Assembly (NCBI GenBank): GCA_963713705.1 | Contig: CAVQMY010000024.1 | Location: 746 to 64,745 of the forward strand | Direction: 5' to 3' | Origin: an uncultured Verrucomicrobiae bacterium | Lineage (GTDB): Bacteria; Verrucomicrobiota; Verrucomicrobiia; Palsa-1439 | DNA length: 64,000 bases | In this document: in pieces, positions 50,268 through 55,814 of the stretch | How the letters are laid out: each line of letters opens with the position of its first letter | How positions within the stretch are numbered: the stretch's first letter is position 1 | The notes under the pieces: model-generated | The model's input: only the letters and a program-made list of their open reading frames with translations | The model's database searches: none | Told to the model about the DNA's origin: nothing | Position numbers and translations under genes: made by a program

Positions 50268-51825
<1,558 letters not shown>

Positions 51826-51998: not shown

Positions 51999-52074
51999 GG
52001 GGCCGTAGCTCAGCTGGGAGAGCGCCTGCTTTGCAAGCAGGAGGTCACGAGTTCGATCCTCGTCGGCTCCACCA
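51999..52074 (+). tRNA. tRNA-Ala (TGC)
   Basis: GGGGCCGTAGCTCAG...TTTGCAA...GGCTCCACCA. Confidence 0.97.
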
Positions 52075-52097: not shown

Positions 52098-52174
52098 GGG
52101 CGCGTAGCTCAGCTGGTTAGAGCATGCGCTTGATAAGCGCAGGGTCATAGGTTCGAATCCTATCGCGCCCACCA
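52098..52174 (+). tRNA. tRNA-Ile (GAT)
   Basis: GGGCGCGTAGCTCAG...TTGATAA...CGCGCCCACCA. Confidence 0.97.
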
Positions 52175-52802
52175 GTTTTCACGACGGGACAATTTCCGCC
52201 GGGCAGAGGCCGGGTGGATGTTCTTTGACAATTGCATACAGTGTAGTGGGTAAAAACTACAATAAATGCTGAGAATATGTCAGTCTGGAACTCAGAGTTG
52301 AGAACCGGACGGATAGTTTGTGATCAAGCTACTAAGAGCGCAGGGCGGATGCCTTGGCGACGATAGGCGATGAAGGACGTAGTAAGTTGCGATAAGCCAC
52401 GGGAAGCGGCAAGCACGCGTTGATCCGTGGATGTCCGAATGGGGGAACCCATCCAGAGTAATATCTGGATACAGTGGTCTGAATACAATAGGACCATATG
52501 AGCCATACCCGGTGAAGTGAAACATCTCAGTAACCGGAGGAACAGAAAGAGCACATCGATTCCCTGAGTAGTGGCGAGCGAAACGGGAACAGCCTAAACC
52601 GAGGTACTTGTACTTCGGGGTTGCGGGACCTCAATGTGGTACGCAGAGAGTTAGCCGAAGTCCGTGGAAACGGACCCCATAGGGTGTGATAGGCACGTAA
52701 GCGAAAACTCAAAGCGACCTAGAGGTATCCCAAGTAAGACGGCACACGTGAAACGTTGTCTGAATCCGCGCCGACCACGGCGCAAGGCTAAATACTCATC
52801 GT

Positions 52803-52849
<47 letters not shown>

Positions 52850-52899
52850 TTTGAGGGGAGTAAAAAGAACCTGAAACCCTGTGCTTACAAAGTGTCATA

Positions 52900-53184
52900 G
52901 CCCCGCTCATTCTGGGGCCAGGACCCATGAACTACGTGTATGTGTTGAAGAATCCGAAGAGCCAGGCGATTTACATCGGTTTCAGTGCGGATCTGCGACA
53001 GCGGATCCAGCAGCATGAACCGGTGAGCATCGCGGATGGGAACTCGTTTACTACGAGGCCTATCGTGACGAAAGTGAGGCGCGGTTGCGGGAGCGGAAGC
53101 TCAAGCAGTACGGCGCGGCACTTGGACATCTGAAAACACGTATCCGAAAGAGTTTGGGTTCGCGGGCTTTGGAATGAGCGGGGT
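52900..53184 (+). other. Intervening sequence in 23S rRNA helix 25
   Basis: Sits between ...CTTACAAAGTGTCATA and GATGGCCTGCCTTTTGCATAATG; closed by CCCCGCTCATTCTGGGGCC / GGCTTTGGAATGAGCGGGG. Confidence 0.9.
52927..53177 (+). CDS. GIY-YIG nuclease encoded inside the 23S IVS (one base missing near 53019)
   Basis: MNYVYVL...IYIGFSADLRQRIQQH, then shifted frame WELVYYEAY....ARLRERKLK. Confidence 0.85.
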
Positions 53185-53691
53185 GATGGCCTGCCTTTTG
53201 CATAATGAGTCTGCGAGTTATTGTCAGTGGCAAGGCTAACCCCGGTCAGACGGGGGCAGCCGCAGCGAAAGCGAGTCTGAACAGGGCGACCAGTCGCTGG
53301 CAATAGACCCGAAGCGGAGGTGATCTACGCATGGTCAGGGTGAAATCTGGGTAACACCAGATGGAGGCCCGAACGGGTGAATGTTGAAAAATTCTCCGAT
53401 GAACTGTGCGTAGGAGCGAAAGACTAAACAAACCCCGTCATAGCTGGTTCTCCCCGAAATATATTGAGGTATAGCGTCCGGCCACTAGCGCGCGGAGGTA
53501 GAGCACTGGATGGGATAGGAGCCTTACCGGGCTACCGAATCCAACCAAACTCCGAATACCGCGTTGCACTACCCGGGCAGTCAGACGGTGGGGGATAAGC
53601 TTCATCGTCGAGAGTGAAACATAAACAGACTATCAGCTAAGGTGCCTAAACTACGTTTAGTGGAAAGGATGTGAGGTTGCTAAGACAGTGA

Positions 53692-53733
<42 letters not shown>

Positions 53734-54501
53734 CAGCTGACTCATCGAGCGATCTCGCGCCGAAAATGATTGGCGATCAAACGTAGTACCGAAGCTATGG
53801 ATTCACCAGGTCCTCGGACCTGGTGAGTGGTAGGGGAGCGTTCCAAGCGCAACGAAGGTGGAAGGTGACTGAAACTGGAGTGCTTGGAAGTGAGAATGCA
53901 GACACGAGTAGCGATAAAGTCGGTTAAATTCCGACTCGCCGTAAACCCAAGGTTTCCTGGGGAAGGTTCGTCCGCCCAGGGTTAGTCGGGACCTAAGTCG
54001 AGGCCGTAAGGCGTAGATGATGGACAGTTGGTTAATATTCCAACACCACCTTGGTTTAAGCTGTCAGGAACCCAGAAGGGAATGCGAGCCACCGGTTGAA
54101 AGTGGTGGTCAATACCGTCGGAAGGCGGCGTTGGACGCGGAGACTACGGTCGAAGCGGATTCGTTAATACCACGCTGGCGAGAAAAGCCTGGCAGTGTTC
54201 ACCAGGGTGCCCGTACCGTAATCCGACACAGGTGGGTGAGATGAGTATTCTCAGGCGCGCGAGTGAAATCTCTCTAAGGAACTCGGCACATTAGCCCCGT
54301 AACTTCGGAAGAAGGGGCGCCCCGGACGGTCAGATTATATCAAAGCCATCTGGGGCCGCAGTGAAAGGCGCTCTGCGACTGTTTAACAAAAACACAGCTC
54401 TGTGCGAACTCGCAAGAGACGGTATACAGAGTGACAAGTGACCAATGCGGAAAGATTAAGGCAAGGGGTCAAGGCGCAAGCCTGAAGCTCTGAACTTAAG
54501 T

Positions 54502-54581
<80 letters not shown>

Positions 54582-55097
54582 TTGTAACGAAAGAGCGACT
54601 GTCTCGGAGAGAGGCTCGGCGAAACTGTAGTTGCGGTGAAGATGCCGCATACCCGCAGTAGGACGGAAAGACCCCGTGCACCTTTACTGTAAGCTGATAT
54701 TGGACTTTGATGTGTGATACGTAGCGTAGGTGGGACCCTTCGAAACCGGGCTCTCGGGCCCGGTGGAGGGAACAATGAAACACCACTTTTCGCTCATTAA
54801 GGTTCTAACCACGCGCCGTTAACCGGCCGCGGGACCGTGTCAGCGGGTCAGTTTGACTGGGGCGGTTTCCTCCCAAAGAGTAACGGAGGAGTACGATGCT
54901 TGGCTCAACCTGGTTGGCAATCAGGTGTTGAGGATATGGCTAAAAGCCAGGCTCACTGTGAGACCTACAAGTCGAGCAGACGCGAAAGCGGGTCCAAGTG
55001 ATCCGGTGGTTGAATGTGGAATCGCCATCGCTCATCGGACAAAAGGTACGCCGGGGATAACAGGCTTATCGGTTCCAAGAGTTCACATCGACGAACC

Positions 55098-55138
<41 letters not shown>

Positions 55139-55170
55139 GAGAAGGTCCCAAGGGTCCGGCTGTTCGCCGG

Positions 55171-55221
<51 letters not shown>

Positions 55222-55344
55222 TATCCACTGTGGGCGCAGCAGACGTGAGGGATTTGTTCCTTAGTACGAGAGGACCGGGAACAACGCACCTCCAGTATTC
55301 CGGTTATTCTGTCAAGAGTAGCGCCGGGTAGCTGTGTGCGGAAA

Positions 55345-55377
<33 letters not shown>

Positions 55378-55697
55378 CCTCCCAAGATTACGTCTGACGG
55401 TCGCAAGACCCTAAAGGCTCGGGGAAGACTACCCCGTTGATAGGCCGGGTGTGTAAACGTAGCAATACGTGAGCTGACCGGTACTAATCAGCCGTGAGGC
55501 TTGATCACTTAAACTTTTCCTCGCAAGAGGGAGGGTCAGTGATTTAAACAAACCTCAGCCATTGTAGCCCCGCTTACTGTATGCAATTATCAGAGAACAC
55601 TGTTCTTTTGACATGATACAGAGAAGTTGTCGGTTGTTGGCCCTCCGTGCCGCTTCGGCGGGAGTGGAGACGCCGATCGCCGACGGCTTCGAAGATT

Positions 55698-55814
55698 TCC
55701 CGGTGGTTTTGCCGCAGTGGTCCCACCCGTTCCCATTCCGAACACGGTCGTGAAACGCTGCAGGGCCGATGGTAGTGCCTGTATAGCTTGCGCGAGAGTA
55801 GGTCGCTGCCGGGG
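55698..55814 (+). rRNA. rrf: 5S rRNA
   Basis: CCCGGTGG...CCCATTCCGAACACGG...GCCGATGGTAGT...GAGAGTAGGTCGCTGCCGGG. Confidence 0.95.

What the first reader, a model, noticed from the sequence alone, without database searches (positions are those of the whole stretch)
52900..53184. 23S rRNA helix-25 insertion encoding a stand-alone GIY-YIG nuclease
Seen: the 23S gene is interrupted at the tip of helix 25 (E. coli ~545) by ~285 nt. The ends form a 19-bp stem (52901-52919 with 53165-53183, four G-U pairs). The loop is almost entirely one sense-strand ORF. Restoring one base at 53017-53020 (GAAC to GAAAC) gives an 83-aa protein: MNYVYVLKNPKSQAIYIGFSADLRQRIQQHETGEHRGWELVYYEAYRDESEARLRERKLKQYGAALGHLKTRIRKSLGSRALE. 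It keeps the YVY/YIG motifs, the Arg and His after them, and the downstream Glu. Established: helix 25 is a known site for RNase III-excised IVSs, usually short and non-coding. Classical coding IVSs carry four-helix-bundle proteins, and rRNA homing endonucleases normally sit in group I introns. ORF-bearing rRNA insertions are reported in CPR bacteria, so novelty must be checked. Inference: there is no room for a ribozyme core, so this may be a minimal ribozyme-free selfish element. The nuclease would spread it among rrn copies while host RNase III removes it from the rRNA.
Basis: partly seen in the sequence, partly recalled or inferred. Interest (0 to 1): 0.88.

Follow-up and report, generated by a model that had tools for sequence, protein, structure and literature searches.

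The report
Hairpin-framed GIY-YIG gene inside 23S rRNA
A soil bacterium's large ribosomal RNA gene carries a 280-base hairpin whose loop encodes a tiny nuclease, and the same hairpin-plus-gene module recurs in ribosomal RNA genes and between genes in many bacterial phyla, so it looks like a very small mobile element.

Summary
The 23S gene (52322-55508) has about 279 extra bases in the terminal loop of helix 25. A 19-bp stem with four G-U pairs brackets a sense-strand GIY-YIG ORF that is one base short at 53017-53020. Contigs from two other peat metagenomes span both junctions and are in frame there. Five same-genus genomes and one same-family genome carry an empty helix tip.

The element is not specific to helix 25. 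Relatives sit at the same site in Verrucomicrobiota, Saccharibacteria, Aminicenantes and Planctomycetota. They also sit in at least six other 16S/23S sites, several of them mapped to hairpin tips, and in intergenic DNA. The arm core is shared (CCCAGCAC...GTGCTGGG, with variants). The arms covary, the ORF is under purifying selection, and the ORF is always sense to the rRNA.

My reading: this is a minimal hairpin-framed GIY-YIG element. Its stem probably serves as an RNase III-excised intervening sequence. Its nuclease probably resembles the Ssn hairpin-specific ssDNA nucleases more than a classical homing endonuclease. GIY-YIG ORFs in non-intron rRNA insertions are already published for CPR bacteria, so this is a new variant. 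Excision, translation and nuclease target remain untested.

The parts
52322..55508 (+). 23S rRNA gene that hosts the element. The operon is 16S 50268-51816, tRNA-Ala 51999-52074, tRNA-Ile 52098-52174, 23S, 5S 55699-55814.
   Evidence: Rfam cmscan; ARAGORN
52894..52904 (+). 5' strand of native helix 25 as aligned to Rfam LSU model 573-583. Its last bases overlap the element's first bases.
   Evidence: cmscan alignment
52900..53184 (+). The bases not shared with empty alleles are 52903-53181 (279 nt).
   Evidence: Alignment with 6 relatives that have an empty tip. Contigs from two other metagenomes span both junctions.
52901..52919 (+). 5' arm of the terminal stem. It contains the conserved core (CCC-N-GC-N-C).
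   Evidence: Sequence, fold, covariation count
52920..52923 (+). AGGA, a possible Shine-Dalgarno 3 nt before the ATG. It is weak and is not conserved in relatives.
   Evidence: Sequence. Relatives mostly lack it. Inference only.
52927..53019 (+). GIY-YIG ORF, N-terminal part (31 codons, from the ATG at 52927)
   Evidence: Translation; Pfam GIY-YIG E 1.2e-7
53017..53020 (+). Frame break: one base is missing relative to in-frame relatives.
   Evidence: The two frames share 53019. The X1 and X2 contigs each have one extra base at 53016/53017.
53019..53177 (+). GIY-YIG ORF, C-terminal part (52 codons plus the TGA stop at 53175-53177). Its last codons are encoded by the 3' arm.
   Evidence: Translation; Pfam E 0.0034; 98% identity to the intact 83-aa P0002
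53165..53183 (+). 3' arm of the terminal stem (core G-N-GC-N-GGG)
53180..53190 (+). 3' strand of native helix 25 (Rfam model 590-600)
   Evidence: cmscan alignment

Best explanation
The feature is one copy of a widespread, very small genetic module of about 250-310 bp. Two complementary arms of about 20 nt carry a conserved core, and the loop between them is filled by a GIY-YIG nuclease gene of about 75-90 codons.

Shown here:
- The window's copy sits in the terminal loop of 23S helix 25 of a Verrucomicrobiota MAG and replaces the native tetraloop tip.
- Same-genus genomes with 95-99% identical flanking 23S lack it.
- Related copies occupy the same site in four phyla, other 16S/23S sites, and intergenic DNA.
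- The arms covary and the protein is under purifying selection.
- In rRNA genes the ORF is always on the rRNA sense strand.

Inferred:
1. At RNA level the arms extend the rRNA helix into a long duplex. Host RNase III cuts it, so the insertion behaves as a classical intervening sequence and the ribosome tolerates it.
2. The ORF has no promoter of its own. It is expressed from the pre-rRNA or the excised hairpin RNA.
3. At DNA level the nuclease acts on the hairpin formed by its own arms in single-stranded DNA, like the Ssn nucleases with their flanking hairpin repeats. That activity maintains or spreads the module, rather than double-strand cutting of an empty rRNA allele.

This particular copy is one base short at 53017-53020. 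That is either a dead copy or an assembly error. I put it at about even odds and could not resolve it.
For: - Site and stem.
- GIY-YIG identity: Pfam on both halves. Intact homologues score 46-52 bits. The AF2 model has pLDDT 86 with a beta-beta-alpha-beta-alpha order. The top Foldseek hits are 1zg2, the UvrC N-domain, the I-TevI catalytic domain and Slx1.
- Independent junction-spanning contigs that are in frame at the break.
- Empty sites: readable H25 in 5 of 7 same-genus genomes that matched the 23S flank, plus 1 same-family genome. All 6 have a 10-14-nt native tip.
- Same site elsewhere: 9 of 80 genome loci plus G045, and 31 of 80 metagenome loci.
- Other rRNA sites.
- The hairpin belongs to the element. 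The 60 non-rRNA copies have a flank duplex median of -42.9 kcal/mol against -30.0 for displaced controls. 20 of these loci show no Rfam RNA except one tRNA. They lie between ORFs. The core arm pattern is found in 113 of 160 loci against 5.1 in shuffles.
- Covariation: 91.6% of cells are paired against 74.8% shuffled, 16 of 23 pairs show double changes, 0 of 500 shuffles reach this, and slid controls give 34-54%.
- Pairing is selected on the sense strand: G.T against A.C is 90:16 in rRNA copies and 28:12 in free copies.
- dN/dS is 0.14-0.29 where dS is not saturated.
- 29 of 31 metagenome H25 ORFs are full length.
- Orientation: no locus has rRNA on the opposite strand.
- No sigma-70-like promoter in 52600-53400.
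- An rnc gene is present at 234.6 bits against a cut-off of 166.
- Ssn analogy: PMC11893778 (sections 7, 10, 17, 18 read). The profile of this family matches an SRM-flanked 94-aa Rhizobium GIY-YIG with hhalign probability 97.9, E 3e-13 and 41% identity.
- ORF-less hairpins share the arm core. The L034 H25 hairpin shares a 10-nt core on both arms with the GIY-YIG element in the same 23S gene.
Against: - There is no RNA evidence. Two peat metatranscriptomes gave no contig over 52918-53169, and the joints seen there are other organisms' short helix tips.
- The published SRM search pattern is not enriched around these genes: 4 hits in 160 loci against 2.4 in shuffles.
- Here one hairpin is split by the gene. 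In Ssn loci a complete hairpin sits on each side.
- The window genome has no other copy of the arms at up to 2 mismatches, so there is no dispersed target set as in Neisseria.
- Empty H25 alleles do not contain the arm core, so it is unclear what a nuclease would recognise there.
- Element identity tracks flanking-23S identity (r = 0.85 over 780 non-independent pairs). That fits long vertical residence as well as transfer among kin.
- The protein tree is poorly resolved: 5 of 89 branches are starred.
- Close variants differ by 6 synonymous to 6 nonsynonymous and 2 to 6 codons, so constraint is not visible at short range.
- The window's own copy is frameshifted.
Confidence: 0.55

Rival explanations
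1. Classical homing. The GIY-YIG protein makes a site-specific cut in double-stranded, insertion-free helix-25 DNA. The element is then copied in by recombinational repair, between rrn copies or incoming DNA.
For: - Presence/absence among genomes with 95-99% identical flanks.
- The same site is occupied in four phyla.
- The native tip is replaced rather than interrupted, as gene conversion from a donor rRNA gene would do.
- GIY-YIG homing enzymes are an established class (PMC3943268, search listing only).
- Some element pairs are as similar as, or more similar than, their 23S flanks, for example L113/L135 at 0.91 against 0.87.
Against: - There is a single rrn operon in the assembly.
- The protein has no DNA-binding domain: 83 aa and one Pfam domain.
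- One lineage uses different rRNA hairpins, and L003's two copies are sisters.
- 62 of 80 genome loci are intergenic with the same arms.
- No co-conversion tract was found. The nearest substitutions against G014 are 220 nt upstream and 65 nt downstream.
Confidence: 0.15
2. A resident, mainly vertically inherited rRNA expansion. Its small protein serves the host, for example in DNA repair or nucleic-acid quality control. The hairpin is only a processing and expression device, and mobility is negligible.
For: - Purifying selection.
- 29 of 31 H25 ORFs are intact.
- Element divergence tracks host 23S divergence, r = 0.85.
- Strict sense orientation.
- Pairing is selected on the transcript strand.
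- No dispersed copies in this genome.
Against: - Six relatives, five in the same genus and one in the same family, have empty sites with ordinary and mutually different tetraloop tips. That points to gain in the window's lineage.
- Among same-class genomes only G045 has it, 1 of 11 readable H25 sites.
- Several different rRNA sites and intergenic sites share homologous arms.
- Two copies sit in one 23S gene.
- Truncated or stop-containing copies occur: L005, L023, L028, L039, L040, L067, G045.
Confidence: 0.15
3. The protein acts on RNA, not DNA. It would help excise or process its own hairpin from the precursor rRNA, making this a protein-assisted intervening sequence.
For: - Pairing is conserved on the sense (RNA) strand with many G-U pairs.
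- The ORF is always sense.
- Conserved single bases are interleaved with covarying pairs, which suggests sequence-specific recognition of the stem.
Against: - Characterised GIY-YIG enzymes are DNases.
- The closest characterised small family, Ssn, neither bound nor cut an RNA copy of its site (PMC11893778, section 8 passages).
- ORF-less hairpins at the same sites (L004, L014, L034) would need the protein in trans or RNase III anyway.
- An RNase III gene is present.
Confidence: 0.07

Closest known systems
GIY-YIG ORFs in non-intron rRNA insertion sequences of CPR bacteria (Tsurumaki et al. 2024, PMC11270868; passages read, supplements closed)
   Same: A GIY-YIG ORF sits inside a 16S/23S insertion that is neither a group I nor a group II intron. 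The insertions are scattered over several less-conserved sites at stem-loop tops. Those authors doubted homing.
   Different: The host here is a 4.4-Mb Verrucomicrobiota MAG, not CPR. The paper does not describe conserved complementary arms ('inverted repeat' has 0 occurrences), intergenic relatives, a sense-strand rule or a link to Ssn. Its Table S4, which may list a helix-25 case, could not be seen.
Classical RNase III-excised 23S intervening sequences at helix 25 and helix 45 (Salmonella, Leptospira, Coxiella and others; recalled, and cited in PMC11270868)
   Same: The site is the same helix-25 tip. A long stem extends the helix. Distribution among close relatives is sporadic. ORF-less hairpin versions of 93-134 nt occur at the same site in L004, L014 and L034.
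   Different: Classical IVSs are non-coding or carry the four-helix-bundle 23S_rRNA_IVP protein. Here the loop encodes a nuclease. Fragmentation of the 23S is not shown here.
Ssn family of site-specific ssDNA endonucleases with flanking NTS/SRM hairpin repeats (Chenal et al. 2025, PMC11893778)
   Same: Both are single-domain GIY-YIG proteins of under 100 aa whose gene is bracketed by inverted, hairpin-forming repeats with a C-rich/G-rich stem base. The paper notes this IS-like architecture. Ssn tolerates split hairpins and extended loops. A profile of this family matches an SRM-flanked Rhizobium member at E 3e-13.
   Different: The published SRM pattern is not found here. One hairpin is split by the gene, instead of a complete hairpin on each side. 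The C-terminal motif differs (KLKQYG...LK.RI). The Ssn paper does not mention rRNA ('rRNA' has 0 occurrences). Membership of cd10448 could not be tested.
GIY-YIG homing endonucleases of group I introns (I-TevI type)
   Same: The catalytic fold is shared. The I-TevI catalytic domain is among the top fold hits, TM 0.57.
   Different: There is no intron ribozyme, no DNA-binding domain and no single target site.
IS200/IS605 and REP/RAYT hairpin-dependent elements
   Same: Very small elements whose ends are hairpins, read on one DNA strand.
   Different: Those use HUH Y1 transposases. Here the enzyme is a GIY-YIG domain, and no transposition chemistry is known for it.

Membership tests
GIY-YIG nuclease superfamily (Pfam PF01541) | Profile match above the curated cut-off | tested here: met
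   The window N part scores 32.3 bits against a cut-off of 22.6. The C part scores 18.1 bits over model 44-70. Intact homologues P0002 and P0003 score 46 and 52 bits.
GIY-YIG nuclease superfamily (Pfam PF01541) | Three-stranded sheet with flanking helices | tested here: met
   The AF2 model of P0002 has pLDDT 86.1, with elements E2-8, E15-20, H23-32, E39-46 and H49-77. Foldseek ranks 1-7 are all GIY-YIG domains, though the E-values are weak at 1.3e-3 or worse.
GIY-YIG nuclease superfamily (Pfam PF01541) | Conserved Tyr (GIY), Tyr (YIG), Arg and Glu | tested here: met
   Y16, R26 and E44 are invariant, and Y5 and H30 are conserved at 90% or more, in 19 sequences. All are present in the window's two parts. 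The catalytic role is assumed from the family.
RNase III-processed 23S intervening sequence | Insertion at the tip of a variable helix (helix 25) | tested here: met
RNase III-processed 23S intervening sequence | Long double-stranded stem that continues the helix | tested here: met
   A 19-bp arm pairing within a longer helix, z = -8.8. It covaries across 13 copies.
RNase III-processed 23S intervening sequence | Removed from mature rRNA, leaving the 23S in fragments | tested here: inconclusive
   RNA contigs of runs X4 and X6 do not cover the element at all, and the organism is rare in those samples.
RNase III-processed 23S intervening sequence | Host encodes RNase III | tested here: met
   TIGR02191 match at 234.6 bits, G000:C7:11543-12202
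Ssn nucleases (CDD cd10448) | Single-domain GIY-YIG protein under 150 aa | tested here: met
   83 aa and one domain
Ssn nucleases (CDD cd10448) | SRM motif in both flanks (pattern given in the paper's Methods) | tested here: not met
   4 hits in 160 loci against 2.4 in shuffles, and 0 hits in window 52400-53700. The pattern does find the NTS consensus and the repeats flanking the Rhizobium gene.
Ssn nucleases (CDD cd10448) | Gene bracketed by hairpin-forming inverted repeats | tested here: met
   Stems of 17-31 bp bracket most copies. Here they form one hairpin split by the gene.
Ssn nucleases (CDD cd10448) | Top CDD hit is cd10448, or BLAST E below 1e-10 to N. meningitidis SsnA | not testable with these tools
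   No CDD and no SsnA sequence were at hand. Indirect evidence: hhalign probability 97.9 and E 3e-13 to an SRM-flanked Rhizobium protein.
Ssn nucleases (CDD cd10448) | Cuts ssDNA only, next to its hairpin | not testable with these tools
   Needs biochemistry
Intron-encoded GIY-YIG homing endonuclease | Resides in a self-splicing intron | tested here: not met
   No intron family is among the Rfam matches. The ORF fills the loop.
Intron-encoded GIY-YIG homing endonuclease | Separate DNA-binding domain and one long target site | tested here: not met
   Only the catalytic domain is present. Relatives lie in at least seven rRNA sites and in intergenic DNA.
23S_rRNA_IVP four-helix-bundle IVS protein | Pfam 23S_rRNA_IVP match | tested here: not met
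   The Pfam hits are GIY-YIG, T5orf172 and GIY_YIG_2 only.
CPR rRNA insertion sequences with GIY-YIG | Host is a CPR/Patescibacteria bacterium | tested here: not met
   The genome is 4.4 Mb. The nearest named rRNA is a Verrucomicrobiia MAG, with 23S at 90-94% and 16S at 92.5%. CPR relatives of the element do exist (L003, L012, L014, L016...).

The most novel reading that the evidence does not exclude
The long-known rRNA intervening sequences are vehicles or remnants of a new class of minimal autonomous mobile element of about 280 bp. The element is a single hairpin whose loop is a GIY-YIG gene. It would settle in hairpin tips of structured-RNA genes and in intergenic DNA. It would borrow rRNA transcription and RNase III to release its own near-leaderless mRNA. 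It would use an Ssn-like, strand-specific ssDNA hairpin nuclease to maintain or spread itself and its ORF-less derivatives.
Probability: 0.25. Interest if true: 0.85.

Novelty: new variant of a known kind. Interest (0 to 1): 0.62.

Why it matters
How rRNA intervening sequences arise and move between distant bacteria has been open since their discovery. A nuclease gene sitting in the loop of the IVS hairpin, with conserved covarying arms and free-living intergenic relatives, offers a concrete and testable candidate for the agent.

It also links two recent findings that their papers do not connect. One is GIY-YIG ORFs in CPR rRNA insertions. The other is the Ssn hairpin-specific ssDNA nucleases.

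If the link is confirmed, this would be among the smallest self-contained genetic elements known. It would also provide a set of natural hairpin and nuclease pairs of possible use as ssDNA tools.

On the practical side, these insertions lengthen 16S/23S genes in several phyla and can disturb rRNA-based surveys and annotation.

Tried and rejected
- **Mis-assembly: rejected.** Junction-spanning contigs come from two other studies.
- **Group I/II intron: rejected**.
- **Programmed frameshift: rejected.** Close relatives are simply in frame.
- **Phage or plasmid origin: no support.** 1 of 50,697 phage records and 3 of 72,556 plasmid records gave weak hits at 33-39% identity.
- **Insertion DNA in relatives.** 0 of 60 relatives matched at E 0.001 or better. 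However, G045's divergent copy was missed by that DNA search and was found only by reading its H25.
- **Dispersed arm repeats in the window's genome:** none at up to 2 mismatches.
- **SRM pattern:** not enriched.
- **NCBIfam:** nothing above a cut-off.
- **Co-conversion tract:** none seen, but the resolution is poor.
- **RNA evidence.** Runs X4 and X6 gave no cover over 52918-53169. The 'joints' there carry other organisms' short loops. This is uninformative about excision or expression.
- **Runs.** No run held half or more of the sampled words, so the window's own strain was not found, and the frameshift could not be checked against reads.
- **Exact-motif search for helix-25 flanks.** It failed for most loci and was replaced by local alignment.
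- **Scan of the window's long ORFs to judge the assembly's frameshift rate:** inconclusive.
- **Protein tree.** It is too short (86 columns) to settle how often rRNA residence arose.
- **Scripts.** They left three copies without a start codon (L014 main copy, L052, L062) and four (L147-L149, L151). These were not scored for intactness.
- **Unassigned metagenome loci.** 19 of 80 were unassigned by the strict rule. Of these, L123, L138 and L171 are probably rRNA too.
- **Closed or unused tools.** Supplementary tables of PMC11270868 and PMC11893778 were not available.
Full report
**What is there**

Rfam finds a complete rrn operon: 16S at 50268-51816, two tRNAs, 23S at 52322-55508 and 5S at 55699-55814. 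The tRNAs are Ala and Ile. The 23S is about 260 nt longer than the model.

The alignment puts all the extra bases after model position 583, inside the loop of the hairpin at model 573-600. This is the helix-25 tip; the helix name and the E. coli numbering are recalled.

The fold of 52885-53200 gives -152.3 kcal/mol against -106.5 +/- 5.2 for shuffles, z = -8.8, and none of 100 shuffles fold as well. No intron family is among the Rfam matches. No sigma-70-like promoter is found in 52600-53400.

**The ORF**

Frame 1 from the ATG at 52927 reads 31 residues of a GIY-YIG N-terminus: Pfam E 1.2e-7, 32.3 bits against a cut-off of 22.6, model positions 1-30. The frame that starts at 53019 reads the remaining 52 residues (E 0.0034, model 44-70) and ends at the TGA at 53175-53177. 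The two frames share base 53019, so one base is missing.

Intact 83-aa proteins exist in public metagenomes. P0002 is 98% identical to the C part, and P0003 is 92% identical over the whole. They score 46-52 bits on Pfam GIY-YIG. An AlphaFold model of P0002 with 19 aligned sequences has pLDDT 86 and the order strand-strand-helix-strand-helix. Its best Foldseek hits are the UPF0213 protein 1zg2, the UvrC N-domain, the I-TevI catalytic domain and Slx1, with weak E-values. The conserved Tyr, Tyr, Arg, His and Glu are all present.

**Is it an artefact, and is the frameshift real?**

The genome (G000: 4.4 Mb, 65 contigs, 77% complete) holds one copy of the insertion and one rrn operon. No public run holds the same strain; the best share of sampled words is 0.46.

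Contigs of two peat-metagenome DNA runs from different studies span both junctions. They are X1 at 52872-53212 with 14 differences, and X2 at 52827-53221 with 10 differences. Each has one extra base at 53016/53017, which puts the ORF in frame.

So the insertion is real, and near relatives carry an open gene. Whether the window's missing base is real could not be decided. A look at the window's long ORFs was inconclusive. The two RNA runs gave no contig over the element. This says nothing either way.

**Empty sites**

Sixteen of 41 genomes, G000 included, matched the 450 nt of 23S upstream of the insertion. In the window's genus, G014 and G009 are 99% identical over those 450 nt, and G006, G005 and G017 are 95-96% identical. 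All five have an ordinary 10-14-nt tip with a GCAA or GTAA loop, as does the same-family G021. G001 and G024 could not be read.

The flanks are identical up to GTCATAGCC on the left and GGTGATGGCC on the right. The element therefore replaces the native tip rather than splitting it. No cluster of substitutions lies beside it. Of 11 relatives' H25 sites that could be read, only G045 (same class) has a 286-nt element, and that copy has TGA at the Trp codon.

**The family**

A pattern scan of one genome per species confirmed 419 relatives, and the best 80 loci were kept.

- **Within 23S.** With the window's rRNAs as BLAST queries, 14 of the 80 loci have the gene inside a 23S gene.
- **Within 16S.** Four more (L016, L018, L022, L074) have it inside a 16S gene.
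- **At helix 25.** Copies lie in Verrucomicrobiota MAGs (L005-L009), Saccharibacteria (L003, L012), Aminicenantes (L050) and Planctomycetota (L075).
- **Second copies.** L003 and L008 carry a second copy in another 23S hairpin, and L004 has its only copy there. This site is the loop of the hairpin at Rfam model 1750-1775. L014 and L034 also have two copies.
- **Metagenome scan.** It confirmed at least 506 relatives. Of the 80 loci kept, 31 are at helix 25, 19 are at four other 23S sites, 11 are in 16S and 19 are unassigned. Of the 31 helix-25 ORFs, 29 are full length.
- **Orientation.** In none of the loci is the rRNA on the strand opposite to the ORF.
- **Family size.** A profile search of 1.84 billion representatives gives 6255 proteins at E 0.001 or better and 705 at 1e-10 or better.

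**The hairpin belongs to the element**

The 62 genome loci without rRNA mostly have the same architecture. The duplex between the 80 nt before the start and the 100 nt around the stop has a median of -42.9 kcal/mol over 60 copies. The values are -56.6 for 23S copies, -55.1 for 16S copies and -30.0 for displaced controls.

Most of these copies have a near-perfect stem of 17-31 bp. Twenty of the loci show no Rfam family except one tRNA. The units lie in short gaps between ORFs.

The arms share a core: 5' CCCAGCAC and 3' GTGCTGGG, with variants CCGAGCAC, CCCCGCCC and CCCGCACAC. This holds at every kind of site. The core pattern, spaced 180-330 nt, occurs in 113 of 160 loci against 5.1 in shuffles. 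In many free copies the ATG is the last triplet of the 5' arm and the stop lies at the start of the 3' arm. In the helix-25 copies the last codons are encoded by the 3' arm.

ORF-less hairpins of 93-134 nt sit at helix 25 in L004, L014 and L034. The L034 hairpin shares a 10-nt core on both arms with the GIY-YIG element elsewhere in the same 23S gene.

**Selection**

On an alignment of 13 rRNA-borne copies, 91.6% of stem cells pair, against 74.8% in shuffles and 34-54% in slid controls. Sixteen of 23 pairs show changes on both sides, and 0 of 500 shuffles reach this. Six pairs are invariant and are interleaved with the covarying ones. The sequences are related, so the shuffle count overstates the case.

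Wobble pairs are strand-biased. G.T against A.C is 90:16 in 63 rRNA copies and 28:12 in 53 free copies. So pairing is kept on the sense strand, as RNA or as sense-strand ssDNA.

dN/dS is 0.14-0.29 wherever dS is not saturated. Against the very close X1 and X2 variants the counts are 6 synonymous to 6 nonsynonymous and 2 to 6 codons. These numbers are too few to read.

Element identity correlates with flanking-23S identity, r = 0.85 over 780 non-independent pairs. This fits long residence, or transfer among kin.

The protein tree has 92 rows and 86 columns and is weak. It groups the window's copy with rRNA-borne and metagenome copies only (SH-aLRT 94). It makes L003's two copies sisters (87). 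It clusters the free copies apart, with 6 changes against 28.7 in shuffles.

**Comparison with what is known**

PMC11270868 (passages read) reports that in CPR bacteria all GIY-YIG ORFs in rRNA insertions lie in insertions that are not introns. It says they are scattered over less-conserved sites, and the authors doubt homing. It does not mention inverted repeats (0 occurrences).

PMC11893778 (abstract, sections 7, 10, 17 and 18, and passages read) describes Ssn. These are single-domain GIY-YIG proteins (cd10448; 94 aa in N. meningitidis) that cut ssDNA next to a hairpin repeat (NTS/SRM). Their genes are flanked by those repeats in an IS-like arrangement. They ignore dsDNA and RNA and tolerate split hairpins and extended loops. 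The paper does not mention rRNA (0 occurrences).

The published SRM pattern is not enriched around my loci (4 hits against 2.4). However, it does flag both flanks of a 94-aa Rhizobium plasmid GIY-YIG gene. The profile of my family matches that gene with probability 97.9, E 3e-13 and 41% identity. I could not test cd10448 membership.

Searches found nothing that joins these threads or reports the element outside CPR:
- GIY-YIG + intervening sequence + 23S rRNA: 11 papers.
- SsnA + GIY-YIG: 2 papers.
- GIY-YIG + rRNA + Verrucomicrobia + insertion: 5 papers.
- GIY-YIG with inverted repeats, hairpin and miniature.

**Verdict**

It is probably wrong about how it moves.

The best reading (0.55) is a minimal hairpin-framed GIY-YIG element. 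It lives in rRNA hairpin tips because its own stem makes it an RNase III-removable intervening sequence there. Its nuclease is more likely an Ssn-like hairpin and ssDNA enzyme than a double-strand homing enzyme. The host encodes RNase III.

Excision, translation and the nuclease's substrate are inferred, not shown. The kind is known in CPR rRNA and, separately, as Ssn. The non-CPR host, the classical helix-25 site, the conserved split-hairpin architecture and the intergenic relatives make it a new variant.

Noticed in passing
G000:C22:67197-67409 (-), outside the window (locus L101): Another small GIY-YIG gene sits directly after a tRNA gene. A direct repeat of about the last 40 nt of that tRNA follows it, like the att duplication of an integrated element.
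   Followed up: partly
G000:C45:9274-9501 (-), outside the window (locus L100): A third small GIY-YIG gene. Its last codons and stop run into the 5' end of a tRNA-like sequence. No hairpin arms of the window's type are present.
   Followed up: partly
L003 (Saccharimonadales), L008 (Verrucomicrobiae), L014 (Microgenomates), L034 (Moranbacteria): Single 23S genes carry two GIY-YIG hairpin elements at different hairpins. In L003 the two proteins are each other's nearest relatives in a weak tree.
   Followed up: partly
L041:3572-3874 and L071:3574-4034: The helix-25 tip holds 303-nt and 461-nt hairpin insertions with unrelated ORFs of 79 and 80 aa. The second looks hydrophobic. The GIY-YIG element sits at another site of the same 23S.
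   Followed up: no
L097 (G045) about 1907-2192; L005:3001-3009: Helix-25 copies with a single in-frame stop: TGA at the conserved Trp codon in G045, and TAG at codon 3 in L005. Otherwise the ORFs are conserved. L005 also has a degenerate RERKLKQ motif.
   Followed up: partly
L044, L046, L054, L061, L073, L080, L081 (Omnitrophota / Planctomycetia), flanks of the element: The arms are extended outward by a second conserved inverted repeat (CGAATTTGA ... TTAATTCG, and further). The unit may be nested in another palindromic repeat, or may have 40-bp ends.
   Followed up: no
L057:2688-3043: Here each flank carries a complete small palindrome made of the arm core, instead of half a hairpin. This arrangement resembles the published repeat-gene-repeat layout of Ssn loci.
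   Followed up: no
window 54324-54400: The 23S hairpin that hosts the second insertion site in other genomes is itself hypervariable among same-genus relatives. G006 differs over the whole stretch.
   Followed up: no
L184 (Rhizobium sp. CIAT894 plasmid) 1442-2379: Five copies of an SRM-type hairpin repeat surround a 94-aa GIY-YIG gene that lies next to an IS4 transposase gene.
   Followed up: partly
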